64,000 nucleotides of DNA, from positions 81,487-145,486 of the forward strand of contig CAVQKO010000013.1 in the NCBI GenBank assembly GCA_963713075.1, written 5' to 3'. This DNA is from an uncultured Chloroflexia bacterium. Its GTDB lineage: Bacteria; Chloroflexota; Limnocylindria; Limnocylindrales; CSP1-4. Of this stretch, positions 4,408-10,777 are shown in pieces; the stretch's first letter is position 1; each line of letters starts with the position of its first letter. Below the pieces are notes generated by a model, which was not told where the DNA came from, made no database searches, and saw nothing but the letters and a program-made list of their open reading frames with translations. The position numbers and the translations under genes were made by a program.

Positions 4408-4742
4408 AGGGCCGGGACCGCCGACGCTGGCGGATTCGGGCGGCCAGCCTCAACGCGGGCCTTGTTGCCGAGCAGCATGCACCTCTCCATGCAGTGGTGG
4501 AGCAGCTTGTCGGGACCGCGCCCTGCGCAGCGCCGCCCCTCGGCGAGCGCTGGGCCAGCTGAGGACAGGCCTTCATCCTACCCGCGGGACTGAAGGCAGC
4601 GGATGCGCGGGGCGGGCTGCGGAGCCCGGCCGGTCGAGCCGGGTTGTGCTTCTGCGGCAGCAAGCGCATCCTTGGTCCCGTCCGACCCCTGCGCCGATGC
4701 CTCGGCCCCTCGAGACTGCGTCCGGTCGGCGAAAGGCATCCC

Positions 4743-5609
4743 ATGCCGCTCAACCCCAGCCCTGCTCACGCGGCCGAGCAGGACGACGACCCTCGCCTCA
4801 TCCCCAGCCCTCGACAGGCCGCCGCGCGCGAGGTCGGGGCTTCGGCGGCGACCTCCGACGGCGCGGGCACAGACCGGTTGGCAGAGGACGAGCGCCTCCC
4901 GCCCGATGCGGCGGCCGACGCCGACGACAGGCCTTTGCGCGTGCTCGTGGTCGACGACCATGAGGTCGTCCGCGAGGGGCTCGTCGCGCTGCTGGGCAGG
5001 CGCCCCCGGTTCCAGGTGGTCGCGCAGGCTGGCACCGTGGCCGGCGCGATCATCGAGGCGCGCCGCTTTGAGCCCGAGCTCGTGCTCATGGACGTGAGCC
5101 TGCCCGACGGGTCGGGGATCGACGCCTGCCGCGCGATCCGTGCCGAGCTCCCGGGTACGCGAGTCGTCTTCCTCACGAGCTCGCCCGAGGAGGAGGACGT
5201 CTTCGCCGCGATCCTCGCGGGCGCGACCGGCTACGTGCTCAAGCAGTCCCGCGCGCGCGAGCTCGTCCGGGCGCTCCTCGCCGCCGGTCGTGGCGAGTCG
5301 CTGCTCGACCCGGGCGTCACCGGCGCGGTGATCGAGCACATCCGCCGCATCGCCACCGACGGGTCCGCGGGCGTCGCGCAGGAGCTGACCGCCCAGGAGC
5401 GCAGGATCCTGTCGCTGCTCGCCGCCGGGAATACCAACAAGGAGATCGCCGGGCAGGTGTTCCTCTCGGACAAGACGGTCAAGAACTACGTCAGCTCGAT
5501 CCTCGCGAAGCTCGGCCTCGAGCGGCGCACCCAGGCGCCGGCCTTCGTGGCGGGCCACCGACGCGAGCTGGGCGACCTCGATCGACAGGCCTCGGCCACA
5601 CGCCCCTGA
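4743..5609 (+). CDS. NarL/FixJ-family response regulator (receiver plus LuxR helix-turn-helix)
   Basis: ATG at 4743 with GAAAGG 8 nt upstream. The receiver 'RVLVVDDHEVVREGL...LVLMDVSLPDGSG...VVFLTS...GYVLK' and helix-turn-helix 'LTAQERRILSLLAAGNTNKEIAGQVFLSDKTVKNYVSSILAKL' are both present. There is an acidic N-terminal extension of about 60 aa. Confidence 0.8.
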   Translation: MPLNPSPAHAAEQDDDPRLIPSPRQAAAREVGASAATSDGAGTDRLAEDERLPPDAAADADDRPLRVLVVDDHEVVREGLVALLGRRPRFQVVAQAGTVAGAIIEARRFEPELVLMDVSLPDGSGIDACRAIRAELPGTRVVFLTSSPEEEDVFAAILAGATGYVLKQSRARELVRALLAAGRGESLLDPGVTGAVIEHIRRIATDGSAGVAQELTAQERRILSLLAAGNTNKEIAGQVFLSDKTVKNYVSSILAKLGLERRTQAPAFVAGHRRELGDLDRQASATRP

Positions 5610-8371: not shown

Positions 8372-8884
8372 TCATGCCCGAAGGGCAGCATCGAGTTGCT
8401 GCTGGAGCTCGTCGAGCCGTCGGCGTCCTGGCGCGCTCGGCGGGACGCGCCGGACGAGGTCGCGAATCGCGGGCGAGGCGTGCTCGACCGCCCGGCGGAC
8501 CTCCTGGTCTGCCGCTGCCGGGTCGCCGCCGGAAGCCAGATCCCGGGCGAGCGCCGCGTACGCCGCTGACCCGAGGATGTGACCCGACGTGCCGACCGTC
8601 GTCTCGCCGTGGATGTTGGCGGCTGCCGCCGCCAGACTGGCCGCCCGCGCGACGGCCAGGCCAAGCGGGTCGCCGACCTCGCGCCCGGCCCTGTGCGCGG
8701 CCAAGGCGACCTGGAAGAGCCGCCTGGTGCGCCGCCCGCCGTCCGCGAACGCGCGTGCAGCCTGGATCGCCTCGCGTGGGCGCCCGTCGCCTGGCGCGAT
8801 CGCCTCGAACAGCGGAAGCACCCGCTCAGCGGCGTCGGCGGCCCAGCGAGCGACGTCGCGGCGCTCCTCGTCGGTGATCGCCAT
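8372..8884 (-). CDS. hypothetical protein
   Basis: Track ORF 8372..8920 with an internal ATG at 8884 ('MAITDEERRDVARWAADAAERVLPLFE'). It looks like a conserved actinobacterial hypothetical. Function unknown. Confidence 0.45.
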   Translation of the reverse strand: MAITDEERRDVARWAADAAERVLPLFEAIAPGDGRPREAIQAARAFADGGRRTRRLFQVALAAHRAGREVGDPLGLAVARAASLAAAAANIHGETTVGTSGHILGSAAYAALARDLASGGDPAAADQEVRRAVEHASPAIRDLVRRVPPSAPGRRRLDELQQQLDAALRA

Positions 8885-9041
8885 GCCCGGATCGTAGCCG
8901 TCCCGCGCCCGCGCTGGCACGGGCCCGATCGACGAAGCGGAGCACAGCTACGGGACGGCCGACACGACCAAGCCGGCGATCGGGTCGAGGTGAACCAGCA
9001 ACCACCGGGGGCCGGGCCGCCGCCTCGGCGACCGTCCCGTC

Positions 9042-9341
9042 TCAGCCGAGCCGGGCCGCGATCTGCTGCGGCGAGGCGAGCGAGGGCCCTTCCTCCCGGG
9101 TCACGGCGGCGAAGAACTCGCACCGCATGCAGTTGGTCAGCTTGCTCGCGAAGCTGCCCTGGACGACGCCGCCGCACAGGGTGCCCGCGATCGCCCAGCA
9201 GGCCCGCCCGCCATTCCGGCCACCGTTGACCCCGGTGGCACGCGTTTCCGAGGACGCAACGCAGACGCCGAGCTCTGCGGCCTTCGGTCCGCCGGGCTGG
9301 CGGCCGCAGTTCTTGAATTCCCAGCAGTTCTGCTTCGACAT
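9042..9341 (-). CDS. small cysteine-rich protein with two Cys-Trp motifs (two-CW-domain-like)
   Basis: ATG at 9341 with GGAGA 6 nt upstream. The product is 'MSKQNCWEFKNCGRQPGGPKAAELGVCVAS...GRACWAIAGTLCGG...FASKLTNCMRCEFF'. It has seven Cys residues plus CW and CG motifs. Confidence 0.6.
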   Translation of the reverse strand: MSKQNCWEFKNCGRQPGGPKAAELGVCVASSETRATGVNGGRNGGRACWAIAGTLCGGVVQGSFASKLTNCMRCEFFAAVTREEGPSLASPQQIAARLG

Positions 9342-9621
9342 GGCGATCTCCACGGGCCGAGCCGCCGAGCGCGCCCGGGCGGTGCGCGCCGTGCCCTGTC
9401 CGGTAGTCGTCGGTCGAGGGCGCCGACGGCTTGAACGCGCGCCCTCGCGGACCGGGGGCGCCCGACCGCTCGCCAGGCCTGGTCATCCCGGTCGTGCTGT
9501 TGCCCCAAACCATGCAGGACGTCCCCCCCCATGTCGACCCACAGCGTCGCGTCCCTCGCGCGCTACCCGCTCGTCGGGGGCGCCTTCGACGCGACCTGGC
9601 TGTTCAGCGTCGTGTCCTGGA

Positions 9622-9640
9622 CCGCGGTACGGCCCTTGTC
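9622..9640. repeat. 19-bp direct repeat copy 1 (CCGCGGTACGGCCCTTGTC)
   Basis: An identical 19-mer recurs at 9716..9734 inside the 660-nt intergenic region. Confidence 0.6.
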
Positions 9641-9715
9641 GGCGAGGCTGTCCGTCGCCGCGCGGCGGACGGCCCCGTCCCGGGCGTGGCGCCCGGAGAC
9701 GTTTCCTGCAGATGG

Positions 9716-9734
9716 CCGCGGTACGGCCCTTGTC
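9716..9734. repeat. 19-bp direct repeat copy 2 (CCGCGGTACGGCCCTTGTC)
   Basis: See copy 1. The two copies are 94 bp apart. Confidence 0.6.
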
Positions 9735-9874
9735 CAAGAAGGCTCCGGCTACCGTCCGCTGGGCGCACATCTGCACCGAACTCGGCGCCAGTTCTCGTCA
9801 CGTGGCCGCAGGGCGGCCATCCGGCGGAAACGGGCGGGATACGGGCCGCGTGGCGCGGCAAATGAAGCTTATGG

Positions 9875-9898
9875 CCGGATGACGGGCCGTCATGACGG
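9875..9898. repeat. palindromic motif copy a (ccggATGACGGgCCGTCATGACGG)
   Basis: A perfect 7-bp inverted repeat, ATGACGG-g-CCGTCAT, overlaps the palindrome CCGTCATGACGG. It lies between the Cys-rich gene and yggT. Confidence 0.6.
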
Positions 9899-10004
9899 CA
9901 GAGCGTCCCAGGCGCTTACTGCGAGCACAGCATTGGCCGGAGTGTCGCCCGGCGACGGTCACCAGACCCCGCTTCCCCGGATGCCGAAGGCATGGGAGGC
10001 CATC

Positions 10005-10421
10005 ATGGCCATCGACCAGACCGACCGAACTGTCATCACCCAGGAGTCCACGCCGACAGGCCAGGAGTCGACGCGTATGGCGACGCGTCGCGTCACGGCG
10101 TCGGGCCCCGGCGGGGCCGAGACGGGCCGACGCATCATGGTCCTCGTCTTCGGGCTCGTCCAGATCGTCATCGGAGCGCGCATCGTCCTGCTCCTACTCG
10201 ACGCACGGGAAGCGAACGGCATCGTCTCCGCGGTCCTGAACATCAGCCAGGTGTTCGTGGCCCCATTCGAGGGCATGCTGCGGACGGACGCCCTCCACTC
10301 GGCGGGCACCACGCTCGACGTGACGGCCGTCGTCGCGCTCGTCGGCTGGACCGTCCTCGAGCTCGTCGCGCTCTGGGTCATCGGCATCTTCGCCCGCCGA
10401 TCGGCTGCGGCGGCCATCTGA
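10005..10421 (+). CDS. YggT-family membrane protein
   Basis: ATG at 10005 with GGGAGG 5 nt upstream. The product is hydrophobic ('IMVLVFGLVQIVIGARIVLLLLD...VFVAPFEGMLRTD...GTTLDVTAVVALVGWTVLE'), with YggT-like repeats. Confidence 0.6.
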   Translation: MAIDQTDRTVITQESTPTGQESTRMATRRVTASGPGGAETGRRIMVLVFGLVQIVIGARIVLLLLDAREANGIVSAVLNISQVFVAPFEGMLRTDALHSAGTTLDVTAVVALVGWTVLELVALWVIGIFARRSAAAAI

Positions 10422-10507
10422 CCACCTTCCCCATCGCGGACGGGAGCGATTCCCGCCCAGCCGCGCGGCCCGCGAACGGACGCCGCGCCACGAAAGGACC
10501 AGTCACC

Positions 10508-10777
10508 ATGGGCATCATCGCCTGGCTCGTGCTCGGCGCCATCGCCGGGTTCATCGCCAACCTGATCATGGGCGGAGGCGAGGGCCTCGTCATGATGGTC
10601 GTCCTCGGGATCGTCGGCGCCGTCGTCGGCGGCTTCGTCGCCGGGACCGTGCTCGGCATCGCCGACGTCACGGGCCTCAACGTGAGCAGCCTCCTCGTCG
10701 CCGTGTTCGGCGCGGTGATCGTCATCCTCGGCGCCCGGATCATCCGGCCGAGCGGCGTGAGCCGTGTCGCCCGATGA
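10508..10777 (+). CDS. GlsB/YeaQ/YmgE-family stress membrane protein
   Basis: ATG at 10508 with AAAGGA upstream. 'MGIIAWLVLGAIAGFIANLIMGG...GIVGAVVGGFV' carries the family signature. Confidence 0.75.
   Translation: MGIIAWLVLGAIAGFIANLIMGGGEGLVMMVVLGIVGAVVGGFVAGTVLGIADVTGLNVSSLLVAVFGAVIVILGARIIRPSGVSRVAR

What the first reader, a model, noticed from the sequence alone, without database searches (positions are those of the whole stretch)
9042..10004. Cys-rich 'CW' small protein with an unusually long, repeat-containing upstream region
The 99-aa product MSKQNCWEFKNCG...GVCVA...ACWAIAGTLCGG...CMRCEFF has seven Cys residues, including two Cys-Trp motifs. The spacing resembles a metal-binding or redox peptide, or a precursor. 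It resembles proteins named 'two-CW domain-containing' that I recall from RefSeq, though I have not verified this.

Its upstream region, shared divergently with yggT, is 660 nt with no convincing ORF. That region contains an exact 19-bp direct repeat (CCGCGGTACGGCCCTTGTC at 9622 and 9716) and palindromic motif copy a. This suggests complex regulation or a non-coding RNA. I found no radical-SAM or other maturase gene adjacent.
Basis: partly seen in the sequence, partly recalled or inferred. Interest (0 to 1): 0.7.

Follow-up and report, generated by a model that had tools for sequence, protein, structure and literature searches.

The report
Free-standing two-CW cysteine sensor domain gene
The small cysteine-rich protein is a real, free-standing copy of the widespread but unstudied 'two-CW' domain, which elsewhere is fused to bacterial and archaeal signalling proteins. 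Its 'long upstream region' is a patchwork whose only widely conserved part is a structured RNA leader belonging to the neighbouring gene.

Summary
The ORF at 9042-9341 (-) encodes 99 aa with 7 Cys and two CW dipeptides. A 663-nt gap separates it from the YggT-like gene, and an exact 19-mer lies at 9622 and 9716.

The protein matches NCBIfam NF045718 (two_CW_domain, 106 bits, cutoff 35). All 7 Cys are invariant. The family has about 1,800 clusters at 50% identity across Bacteria and Archaea. No paper was found, and a confident AF2 model (pLDDT 92.5) has no solved structural relative.

Fused members carry histidine kinase, PAS, receiver, MCP, Ser/Thr kinase, GGDEF, cyclase, PP2C or PilZ domains. 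Neighbours of stand-alone genes are enriched in signalling genes. My best reading is a cytoplasmic, metal- or cluster-binding sensory module. A RiPP precursor is unlikely.

The upstream region is composite:
- About 110 nt form the two-CW gene's own leader.
- About 430 nt are lineage-specific DNA holding the unconserved 19-mer repeat and a minus-strand hairpin.
- 9879-10007 is the promoter, with an ATGAC-N5-GTCAT operator, plus an 81-nt structured, Shine-Dalgarno-sequestering leader of the YggT-like operon. That leader is present in 51 of the 80 related loci, shows covariation, and is absent from Rfam.

The protein is a new member of a named family, and the leader is a candidate new cis-regulatory RNA.

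The parts
9042..9341 (-). Two-CW gene, 99 aa plus stop. It is a free-standing two-CW domain with 7 invariant Cys.
   Evidence: NF045718 at 106.2 bits against a cutoff of 35. All 7 Cys are invariant in 28 homologs. Codon score is +0.3 bits/codon and GC3 is 0.93. AF2 pLDDT is 92.5.
9342..9450 (-). The two-CW gene's own proximal upstream block. It holds the SD GGAG (9348-9351), a conserved AGGGCACGGCG motif (9387-9397), TTCAAGCC (9428-9435), and a hairpin position whose arms differ between relatives.
   Evidence: 73% identity over 108 nt to L002 and L003, with shared blocks in L165. Only 3 independent relatives are available, so the structure is untested.
9500..9710 (.). Patch with coding-like codon statistics (+ frame of ATG 9531, or its antisense). 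It has no ORF boundaries and no homolog. It may be a gene remnant; it remains unexplained.
   Evidence: GC3 of 0.93-0.97, codon score about +0.2 bits/codon, and no protein homolog.
9622..9640 (+). 19-mer direct repeat, copy 1.
   Evidence: Exact. Not found in 1.46 Mb of related loci, apart from the same-organism contig L001.
9716..9734 (+). 19-mer direct repeat, copy 2. It is 94 nt from copy 1 and lies in one arm of the 9700-9832 inverted repeat.
9700..9832 (-). Long imperfect inverted repeat that folds markedly better as minus-strand RNA. It is lineage-specific and of unknown function.
   Evidence: Arms 9700-9728 and 9804-9832 are 79% complementary. For 9600-9860, z = -4.5 on the minus strand and -1.3 on the plus strand. 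For the 9702-9841 window, z = -3.65 on the minus strand and -1.2 on the plus strand.
9879..9893 (.).
   Evidence: ATGAC-N5-GTCAT has 9 sites in the window against 0.74 expected, and none of 100 shuffles reached 9. The site is conserved in the close clade of YggT-like loci.
9927..10007 (+). Structured 5' leader RNA of the YggT-like operon. P1 is 9936-9940/9949-9953. P2 is 9954-9960/9965-9970. P3 pairs the anti-SD CUUCCC (9972-9977) with the SD GGGAGG (9994-9999), and has an inner hairpin at 9981-9985/9989-9993.
   Evidence: Only this part of the gap is conserved in relatives. Model R1 hits 52 of 81 sources (the window plus 51 of 80 related loci), always just 5' of the gene, and 37 of 48 loci with at least 400 nt of upstream sequence. 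Nine pairs covary against 3.1 in shuffles (0 of 500), and P2 covaries at 5 of 6 pairs. There is no Rfam match.
10005..10421 (+). YggT-like small membrane protein gene (138 aa from ATG 10005), first gene of a YggT-like / Transgly_assoc / CsbD operon. It is not functionally linked to the two-CW gene.
   Evidence: Pfam YGGT at 19.3 bits, below the gathering score of 27. Homologs align from MAIDQ. Transgly_assoc follows in 50 of 60 loci. None of the 80 related loci carries a two-CW gene.

Best explanation
The ORF is a genuine gene for a free-standing two-CW domain (NCBIfam NF045718). It is a compact cytoplasmic domain held together by seven invariant cysteines.

Shown here:
- It belongs to the family.
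- The family is very large and spans Bacteria and Archaea.
- The same domain is fused N- or C-terminally to the transmitter modules of prokaryotic signalling.
- Stand-alone genes tend to sit next to signalling genes.

Inferred:
- The domain is a sensory input module that binds a metal centre through its cysteines. The centre is most likely one or two Fe-S clusters, or otherwise a zinc cluster.
- It reports redox, oxygen, NO or metal status. It does so in cis when fused, and by protein-protein contact with a partner kinase, chemoreceptor or regulator when free-standing, as in this window.

The 663-nt upstream gap is not one regulatory region but three juxtaposed pieces:
1. About 110 nt form the gene's own promoter and 5'-UTR.
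2. About 430 nt are lineage-specific DNA carrying the 19-mer repeat, an inverted repeat and a coding-like remnant.
3. The rest is the promoter, with an ATGAC-N5-GTCAT operator, plus an 81-nt structured, Shine-Dalgarno-sequestering leader RNA of the divergent YggT-like stress operon.
For: Family membership:
- NF045718 scores 106 bits against a cutoff of 35.
- All 7 Cys are invariant in 28 stand-alone homologs. In 36 fused members, six Cys are invariant and C56 is at least 90% conserved.

Breadth:
- 636 hits.
- 1,829 clusters at 50% identity, of which 1,024 have E <= 1e-10.
- More than 583 species, including methanogens, Bathyarchaeota, Thorarchaeota, Desulfo- lineages, Planctomycetota and Omnitrophota, at 56-68% identity.

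Sensor-type architectures:
- Among 36 long members: HATPase_c 13, HisKA 8, PAS 8, Response_reg 5, Pkinase 4, cNMP_binding 3, MCPsignal 2, GGDEF 2, plus cyclase, PP2C, STAS, PilZ and Hpt.
- Explicit cases include two-CW-PAS-HisKA-HATPase, two-CW-cNMP-Pkinase, NIT-MCP-two-CW and HAMP-MCP-two-CW.

Neighbourhood:
- Response_reg occurs in 13 of 141 immediate neighbours against at most 2 of 116 distal controls (Fisher p = 0.009).
- HAMP, MCPsignal, Cache, PAS and GAF are also more frequent among the immediate neighbours.

Fold:
- The AF2 model has pLDDT 92.5 and pTM 0.82.

Composite upstream region.
Against: - No cofactor was demonstrated.
- Fe-S against Zn cannot be decided from sequence.
- The neighbour enrichment is modest. 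It is inflated by related genomes (about 9 Methanoregula loci and 4-5 Desulfovibrionales loci). Only Response_reg is individually significant.
- In this window the nearest signalling gene, a NarL/LuxR-type response regulator at 4644-5609, is 3.4 kb away. No gene family is conserved next to the stand-alone form, so the partner is unknown.
- The domain could be a structural or interaction module rather than the sensing element.
Confidence: 0.62

Rival explanations
1. The domain is a zinc-stapled structural, dimerisation or adaptor module of signalling proteins that does not itself sense anything. The free-standing protein would be a scaffold or inhibitor that docks onto such proteins.
For: - Seven Cys with many invariant Gly suit a Zn2Cys7-type knuckle as well as Fe-S.
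- Tandem paralogs occur in 5 loci and double-domain proteins exist, which suggests self-association.
- The domain occurs at either end of proteins that already carry PAS, GAF, NIT or Cache sensor domains.
Against: - Some fusions have the two-CW domain as the only candidate input. An example is L065, two-CW-HisKA-HATPase-REC-REC-Hpt.
- Conservation across Bacteria and Archaea at 56-68% identity is unusually strict for a mere adaptor.
- The distribution is biased towards anoxic-habitat lineages.
Confidence: 0.2
2. The protein is a ribosomally made precursor peptide (RiPP) whose cysteines are modified by a radical-SAM or other maturase.
For: It is small and Cys-rich. Five of 141 immediate neighbours are radical-SAM proteins.
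Against: - Of the five radical-SAM neighbours, the three identified individually lie in two Methanoregula loci and one Zixiibacteria locus. The protein cluster containing the Methanoregula ones spans 5 loci.
- No maturase lies within about 10 kb in the window.
- There is no leader/core split. The whole 99 aa is conserved, including residues 1-14.
- The model is a confident globular fold.
- The same sequence is a domain inside kinases and chemoreceptors.
- No peptide-precursor family matched in NCBIfam.
Confidence: 0.03
3. It is a small ferredoxin-like electron carrier of anaerobic metabolism.
For: It is Cys-rich and about 11 kDa, and is found mostly in anaerobe lineages.
Against: - No Fer4 or other redox-protein family match was found.
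- It lacks the CxxCxxCxxxCP motif.
- Fusion partners are signalling modules, not oxidoreductases.
- Neighbours are not enriched for redox enzymes; Fer4 families appear only in the distal controls.
Confidence: 0.07
4. The 19-mer repeat and the 9700-9832 hairpin belong to a long structured 5'-UTR or a small RNA that regulates the two-CW gene.
For: - The repeat is far beyond chance.
- The minus strand, which is the two-CW strand, folds with z = -4.5 against -1.3 for the plus strand.
- The 94-nt spacing is about 9 helical turns.
Against: - It is not conserved in any relative of either flanking gene.
- The closest two-CW relative has only 152 nt upstream.
- There is no Rfam match and no promoter or terminator consensus.
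- It has no homolog in plasmids.
- Nothing beyond a single genome can be tested.
Confidence: 0.12

Closest known systems
NCBIfam NF045718 'two-CW domain' (two-CW domain-containing proteins)
   Same: Full-length match to the 80-position model (residues 4-82), well above the cutoff. It has both CW dipeptides and all conserved Cys.
   Different: Nothing structural differs; this is an ordinary stand-alone member. The family has a name but, as far as the searchable literature shows, no described function or structure.
CZB (chemoreceptor zinc-binding) domain. The comparison rests on my own knowledge of that family.
   Same: The usage pattern matches. Both are small cytoplasmic metal-binding domains found at the C-terminus of chemoreceptors, fused to cyclases or kinases, and as stand-alone proteins. 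CZB acts as a redox and metal sensor.
   Different: There is no sequence relationship; the Pfam scan gave no hit. CZB is a four-helix bundle with a 3His/1Cys zinc site. Two-CW has seven Cys, no conserved His, a loop-rich N-terminal two-thirds, and no solved structural relative.
Cys-ligated Fe-S sensors (the FNR N-terminal cluster, the NreB PAS domain, WhiB-like proteins). The comparison rests on my own knowledge.
   Same: Invariant Cys clusters in cytoplasmic regulators. Cluster state (O2, NO) controls output.
   Different: Those use 4 Cys in different spacings and different folds. No family match was found. Two-CW has 7 Cys in a pattern that looks weakly duplicated as CW-x4-6-CG-x14-C (hhalign E = 0.036, inconclusive).
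Eukaryotic zf-CW zinc finger (PF07496)
   Same: Only the Cys and Trp content and the letters in the name.
   Different: No Pfam match even at E <= 0.1. zf-CW has 4 Cys and reads histone tails. It is unrelated.
For the leader RNA at 9927-10007: Shine-Dalgarno-sequestering riboswitch expression platforms and RNA thermometers (ROSE, fourU). The comparison rests on my own knowledge.
   Same: It is a 5'-UTR hairpin in which a conserved pyrimidine stretch (CUUCCC) pairs with the SD, preceded by conserved hairpins.
   Different: No Rfam family matches. The ligand or signal is unknown. Thermodynamic z-scores are unremarkable.

Membership tests
NCBIfam NF045718 two_CW_domain | HMM score above the curated cutoff over the whole model | tested here: met
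   106.2 bits against a cutoff of 35; residues 4-82 match model positions 1-79 of 80.
NCBIfam NF045718 two_CW_domain | Two Cys-Trp dipeptides and the conserved Cys set | tested here: met
   C6-W7 and C48-W49 are present, and C6, C12, C27, C48, C56, C71 and C74 are invariant in 28 homologs. In 36 fused members six of these Cys are invariant and C56 is at least 90% conserved.
Prokaryotic sensory input domain (functional class) | Recurrent fusion to diverse transmitter or output modules (HK, MCP, GGDEF, STK, cyclase) | tested here: met
Prokaryotic sensory input domain (functional class) | A bound ligand or cofactor whose state changes the output | not testable with these tools
   This needs biochemistry. 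Only the invariant Cys7 pattern is available.
Fe-S cluster protein | A known cluster-binding motif or family (Fer4 CxxCxxCxxxCP, the radical-SAM CxxxCxxC motif, the CCG domain, Wbl) | tested here: not met
   No Pfam or NCBIfam hit other than NF045718. The Cys spacing is 6, 12, 27, 48, 56, 71, 74. This does not exclude a new type of site.
RiPP precursor peptide | A conserved adjacent maturase and a leader/core conservation pattern | tested here: not met
   There is no conserved neighbour family. Radical-SAM neighbours are lineage-restricted. Conservation is uniform from residue 1.
Pfam zf-CW (PF07496) | HMM match | tested here: not met
   No Pfam family matched at E <= 0.1.
Any Rfam 15 family (for the upstream region) | Covariance-model match | tested here: not met
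   No match at E <= 1 in window 8900-10600, and none over the leaders of 15 relatives.
Structured cis-regulatory leader RNA or riboswitch-like element (9927-10007) | Conserved position 5' of one gene family, on the gene's strand, with base pairs kept through compensatory changes | tested here: met
   52 hits in 81 sources (the window plus 51 of 80 related loci), all immediately 5' of the gene. Nine pairs have both-side changes against 3.1 +/- 1.3 in shuffles (0 of 500), and slid controls give 2-7. Caveat: the alignment was fitted to the model.
Structured cis-regulatory leader RNA or riboswitch-like element (9927-10007) | A defined ligand or signal and a demonstrated switch | not testable with these tools
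   Per-sequence MFE folds show the SD-sequestering hairpin in 5 of 8 representatives, with alternative folds in the others.
Pfam YGGT (PF02325), for the neighbouring gene | HMM score above the gathering threshold | tested here: inconclusive
   19.3 bits against a gathering score of 27, E = 0.0015. 'YggT-like' is therefore only a label.

The most novel reading that the evidence does not exclude
The two-CW domain is an undescribed class of cysteine-ligated metal-cluster sensor, probably Fe-S and responsive to oxygen, redox state or NO. It has a fold without solved relatives and is shared by Bacteria and Archaea. It feeds histidine kinases, chemoreceptors, Ser/Thr kinases and cyclases, either in cis or as this free-standing 99-aa protein. 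Separately, the 81-nt leader at 9927-10007 could be a new riboswitch or thermosensor class controlling a YggT-like / YmgE-like / CsbD stress operon.
Probability: 0.35. Interest if true: 0.7.

Novelty: new member of a known kind. Interest (0 to 1): 0.48.

Why it matters
The gene in this window is an ordinary member of a family that NCBI already names. The family itself is notable. It is a 99-aa Cys7 domain conserved at about 60% identity between Actinobacteria-like genomes and methanogenic Archaea. It is present in well over 500 species and plugged into every major type of prokaryotic signal transducer. Yet it has no publication, no Pfam entry and no structural relative.

If it is a metal-cluster sensor, it would add a new input domain to the census of prokaryotic signalling. 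It would also explain how many anaerobes couple redox or oxygen status to kinases and chemotaxis. A cultured host, Methanospirillum lacunae Ki8-1 (locus L059), makes this testable.

The by-product is a conserved, covarying, SD-sequestering leader upstream of a small-membrane-protein stress operon that is absent from Rfam. It is a candidate new cis-regulatory RNA.

Tried and rejected
- Rfam E-value scans of the region and of 15 relatives found nothing relevant.
- Sigma-70 promoter and intrinsic-terminator scans found nothing.
- A conserved gene neighbourhood for the stand-alone two-CW gene does not exist. The best recurring neighbour family is in 6 of 80 loci.
- A RiPP maturase link was rejected.
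- Internal duplication of the domain: hhalign of the two halves aligns CG-x14-C segments, but only at E = 0.036 and 1.4% probability. This is inconclusive.
- The 296-aa and 180-aa extended versions of the YggT-like gene were rejected. GC3 periodicity is absent over 9740-9980. A strong SD precedes ATG 10005. Distant homologs start at MAIDQ. Relatives' 'N-termini' match different reading frames of the window. The distance from the invariant GGAUGCC to the start codon varies out of frame.
- The peptide from the coding-like patch 9531-9740 has no homolog, and 9342-9880 has no match in plasmids.
- RNAalifold on a plain MAFFT alignment missed helix P2 because of loop-length variation. It was rescued by anchored folding and a covariance model.
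- Literature searches for two-CW, NF045718, the NCWEF motif, cysteine-rich sensor domains, and riboswitches near yggT, ymgE or csbD returned nothing relevant.
- Model coordinates are not exposed, so Cys-Cys distances could not be measured.
Full report
**1. Observation**

A GGAG Shine-Dalgarno sits 6 nt upstream of the ATG at 9341. The protein has seven Cys (C6, C12, C27, C48, C56, C71, C74) and two Cys-Trp dipeptides.

The gap to the ATG of the divergent YggT-like gene (10005) is 663 nt. The 19-mer CCGCGGTACGGCCCTTGTC is exact at 9622 and 9716 and occurs nowhere else in the window, even with 3 mismatches. None of 100 shuffles gave 2 matches. The chance expectation of any exact 19-mer pair in the gap is about 3e-5. 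The two copies are 94 nt apart, which is not a multiple of 3. They share only a little extra similarity on the 5' side.

**2. The protein**

Pfam has no match. NCBIfam NF045718 'two_CW_domain' matches end to end at 106 bits, with E = 8.5e-31 and a cutoff of 35.

A word-indexed search gave 636 homologs. The best 120 are nearly all 97-108 aa and 61-82% identical. All seven Cys, both Trp and many Gly are invariant.

A scan of one genome per species found more than 583 species. These include Methanoregula, Methanospirillum, Methanocella, Bathyarchaeota, Thorarchaeota, Desulfovibrionales, Ignavibacteria, Planctomycetota, Omnitrophota, Fibrobacterota, Acidobacteriota, Chloroflexota, Nitrospirota and Spirochaetota, at 56-68% identity to the window protein. 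Such lineages are mostly from anoxic habitats; that last point is my own reading of the record titles.

An exhaustive profile search gave 1,829 clusters at 50% identity, of which 1,024 have E <= 1e-10.

**3. What the domain does**

There is no conserved neighbour gene. The best recurring family is found in 6 of 80 loci. Two independent lines point to signal transduction.

(a) Fusions
- About 44 of the best 150 representatives are longer than 200 aa.
- Among 36 of these, Pfam finds HATPase_c in 13, HisKA in 8, PAS in 8, Response_reg in 5, Pkinase in 4, cNMP_binding in 3, MCPsignal in 2, GGDEF in 2 and GAF in 2. Guanylate_cyc, PP2C, STAS, PilZ, Hpt and NIT each occur once.
- Explicit architectures include two-CW-PAS-HisKA-HATPase, two-CW-REC-REC-PAS-HK, two-CW-cNMP-Pkinase, NIT-MCP-two-CW, HAMP-MCP-two-CW and PAS-HK-two-CW.
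- In fetched loci, L065 carries two-CW-HisKA-HATPase-REC-REC-Hpt. L078 carries an in-frame NIT-HAMP-MCP-two-CW.

(b) Neighbours of stand-alone genes
- Response_reg occurs in 13 of 141 immediate neighbours, against at most 2 of 116 ORFs taken 3-6 kb away in the same loci (Fisher p = 0.009).
- HAMP (7), MCPsignal (6), Cache (5), PAS and GAF are also among the most frequent families in the immediate neighbours and are scarce or absent in the controls.
- The enrichment is partly phylogenetically redundant. Methanoregula contributes about 9 loci, and a divergent Cache-HAMP-MCP recurs in 4 Desulfovibrionales-type loci.

Recurrent fusion to many different transmitter modules is the classical signature of a sensory input domain. 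That rule is my own knowledge of prokaryotic signalling.

The seven invariant Cys, the Gly-rich loops and a CxxC at a helix start argue for a metal centre. No known Fe-S or Zn family matches, so the cofactor is inferred, not shown.

**4. Rivals for the protein**

- A RiPP precursor is very unlikely. The radical-SAM neighbours that could be identified are restricted to a Methanoregula clade plus one other locus. No maturase lies near the gene in the window. Conservation runs from residue 1, and the sequence is a domain of large proteins.
- A ferredoxin-like carrier is unlikely. No Fer4 family matches, and there are no redox-enzyme partners.
- A purely structural zinc module remains a serious alternative.

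**5. The upstream region is composite**

(i) The two-CW gene's own upstream block. Its three closest independent relatives share only about 110 nt upstream of the start codon. The shared blocks are TTCAAGCC, AGGGCACGGCG, a hairpin position with different arms, and the SD. The closest relative, at 82% identity, has a 152-nt gap and different neighbours.

(ii) The YggT-like side.
- Eighty metagenomic loci encoding relatives of the YggT-like protein were fetched. None carries a two-CW gene.
- Only window 9873-9999 is conserved at the DNA level, at 73-87% identity in at least 45 loci, with a sharp 5' edge.
- Gene callers often extend the ORF to the equivalent of ATG 9879, or to 9531 in this organism. 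Four observations show the stretch is non-coding:
  - GC3 periodicity is absent there.
  - Distant homologs start at MAIDQ.
  - Some relatives' 'N-termini' match another frame of the window.
  - The spacing between the invariant GGAUGCC and the start codon varies out of frame.
- The block consists of a promoter-like segment and an 81-nt leader at 9927-10007. In the window's clade the promoter segment carries the palindrome ATGACGGGCCGTCAT (9879-9893). In more distant relatives the same position holds two CTACAGTTGA repeats that include a TTGACA.
- The leader has hairpin P1 (GCCGG/CCGGC, an invariant stem with a variable loop). It has hairpin P2, which forms in every sequence with 4-9-nt loops and changed pairs. 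A third hairpin pairs CUUCCC with the SD GGGAGG.
- A covariance model built from 14 close sequences finds 52 hits in 81 sources, that is, the window plus 51 of 80 related loci. Each hit is single, on the gene's strand and ends at the start codon. Of the 48 loci with at least 400 nt of upstream sequence, 37 are hit.
- On the model-based alignment, 86% of cells pair. Nine pairs change on both sides, against 3.1 +/- 1.3 in shuffles (0 of 500) and 2-7 in slid controls. P2 covaries at 5 of 6 pairs and the anti-SD helix at 3 of 6. The caveat is that the alignment was fitted to the structure.
- Single-sequence folds show the SD-sequestering hairpin in 5 of 8 representatives, with unremarkable z-scores.
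- Rfam has no match.
- The downstream operon is conserved. Transgly_assoc follows in 50 of 60 loci, and CsbD follows in the close clade.
- This is a candidate translational control element of a small-membrane-protein stress operon. It has nothing to do with the two-CW gene.

(iii) The middle stretch, about 9450-9872, is conserved nowhere. It holds:
- the 19-mer pair;
- an inverted repeat at 9700-9728/9804-9832 that folds much better as minus-strand RNA (z = -4.5 against -1.3);
- a 180-nt patch with gene-like codon statistics but no ORF boundaries and no homolog.

Its nature cannot be decided from one genome. It could be a gene remnant, a local duplication, or a lineage-specific RNA or operator.

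**6. Palindromic motif**

ATGAC-N5-GTCAT has 9 sites in the window, 6 of them exact, against 0.74 expected. None of 100 shuffles reached 9. Two sites lie between a DUF1269 gene and a PRC-barrel gene. This looks like the operator of an unidentified regulator. The copy at 9879 serves the YggT-like promoter.

**7. Verdict**

It is partly wrong on three points: the protein is not a precursor, the gap is not one long regulatory region of this gene, and the repeat is not conserved.

The gene is a new member of a named but functionally undescribed family. The family-level inference (a Cys7 sensory domain with no solved fold) and the YggT-operon leader RNA are the parts worth following up.

Noticed in passing
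window 9879, 15529, 15724, 19752, 19830, 35285, 37184, 37897, 38090: The palindrome ATGAC-N5-GTCAT occurs 9 times (6 exact) against 0.74 expected. It looks like the operator of an unknown regulator. Two sites lie between the DUF1269 and PRC-barrel genes, and one sits at the YggT-like operon promoter.
   Followed up: partly
window 9927-10007 (+), and 51 of the related loci L084-L163: A conserved, covarying, Shine-Dalgarno-sequestering 5' leader lies upstream of a YggT-like / Transgly_assoc / CsbD operon and is absent from Rfam 15. The invariant blocks CAGCAnUGGCCGG, CCCGGCGG and CGCUUCCCCGGAUGCC are not explained by the helices alone.
   Followed up: yes
window 9531-10421 and 9879-10421 (+): Gene callers over-extend the YggT-like gene to 296 aa or 180 aa across its own leader RNA. 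The likely true start is ATG 10005 (138 aa).
   Followed up: yes
window 9700-9832 (-): A long imperfect inverted repeat folds far better on the minus strand (z about -4) than on the plus strand. It contains the second 19-mer copy. No homolog was found.
   Followed up: partly
window 9500-9710: This patch has gene-like GC3 and codon statistics but no ORF boundaries and no protein homolog. It may be a remnant of a lost gene.
   Followed up: partly
L084-L163, about 50 nt upstream of the leader (for example L105:957-1000): In more distant relatives the promoter region carries two direct CTACAGTTGA repeats (the second includes a TTGACA) in place of the ATGAC palindrome. The operator appears to have been swapped between clades while the leader RNA was kept.
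   Followed up: no
L028, L032, L049, L059, L067: Tandem two-CW paralogs occur, and in L067 (Thorarchaeota) a single 188-aa ORF holds two two-CW domains. Double-domain proteins also top the profile search (P0188-P0190).
   Followed up: partly
L041, L048, L053, L066 (Desulfovibrionales-type MAGs): A 626-aa MCP-type protein (Cache, HAMP and MCPsignal families appear among the neighbours) is divergently transcribed 181-205 nt from the stand-alone two-CW gene in all four loci. It is a candidate partner.
   Followed up: partly
L004, L007, L009, L012, L013, L017, L046 (Methanoregula and other Methanomicrobiales): The stand-alone two-CW gene has receiver and hybrid PAS-kinase-type genes downstream on the opposite strand. 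In two scanned loci (L009, L012) it also has a radical-SAM gene upstream. The context is lineage-specific.
   Followed up: partly
L039, L052, L075: Chorismate synthase lies directly upstream of the two-CW gene on the same strand (47-59 nt) in Omnitrophota and Planctomycetales MAGs.
   Followed up: no
window 8372-8920 (-): An Imm5-like putative immunity protein gene lies 121 nt downstream of the two-CW gene on the same strand, with no predicted terminator between them. The pairing is not seen in relatives.
   Followed up: no
window 4644-5609 (+): A NarL/LuxR-type response regulator (Response_reg + GerE) lies 3.4 kb from the two-CW gene. It is the nearest signalling gene in the window.
   Followed up: no
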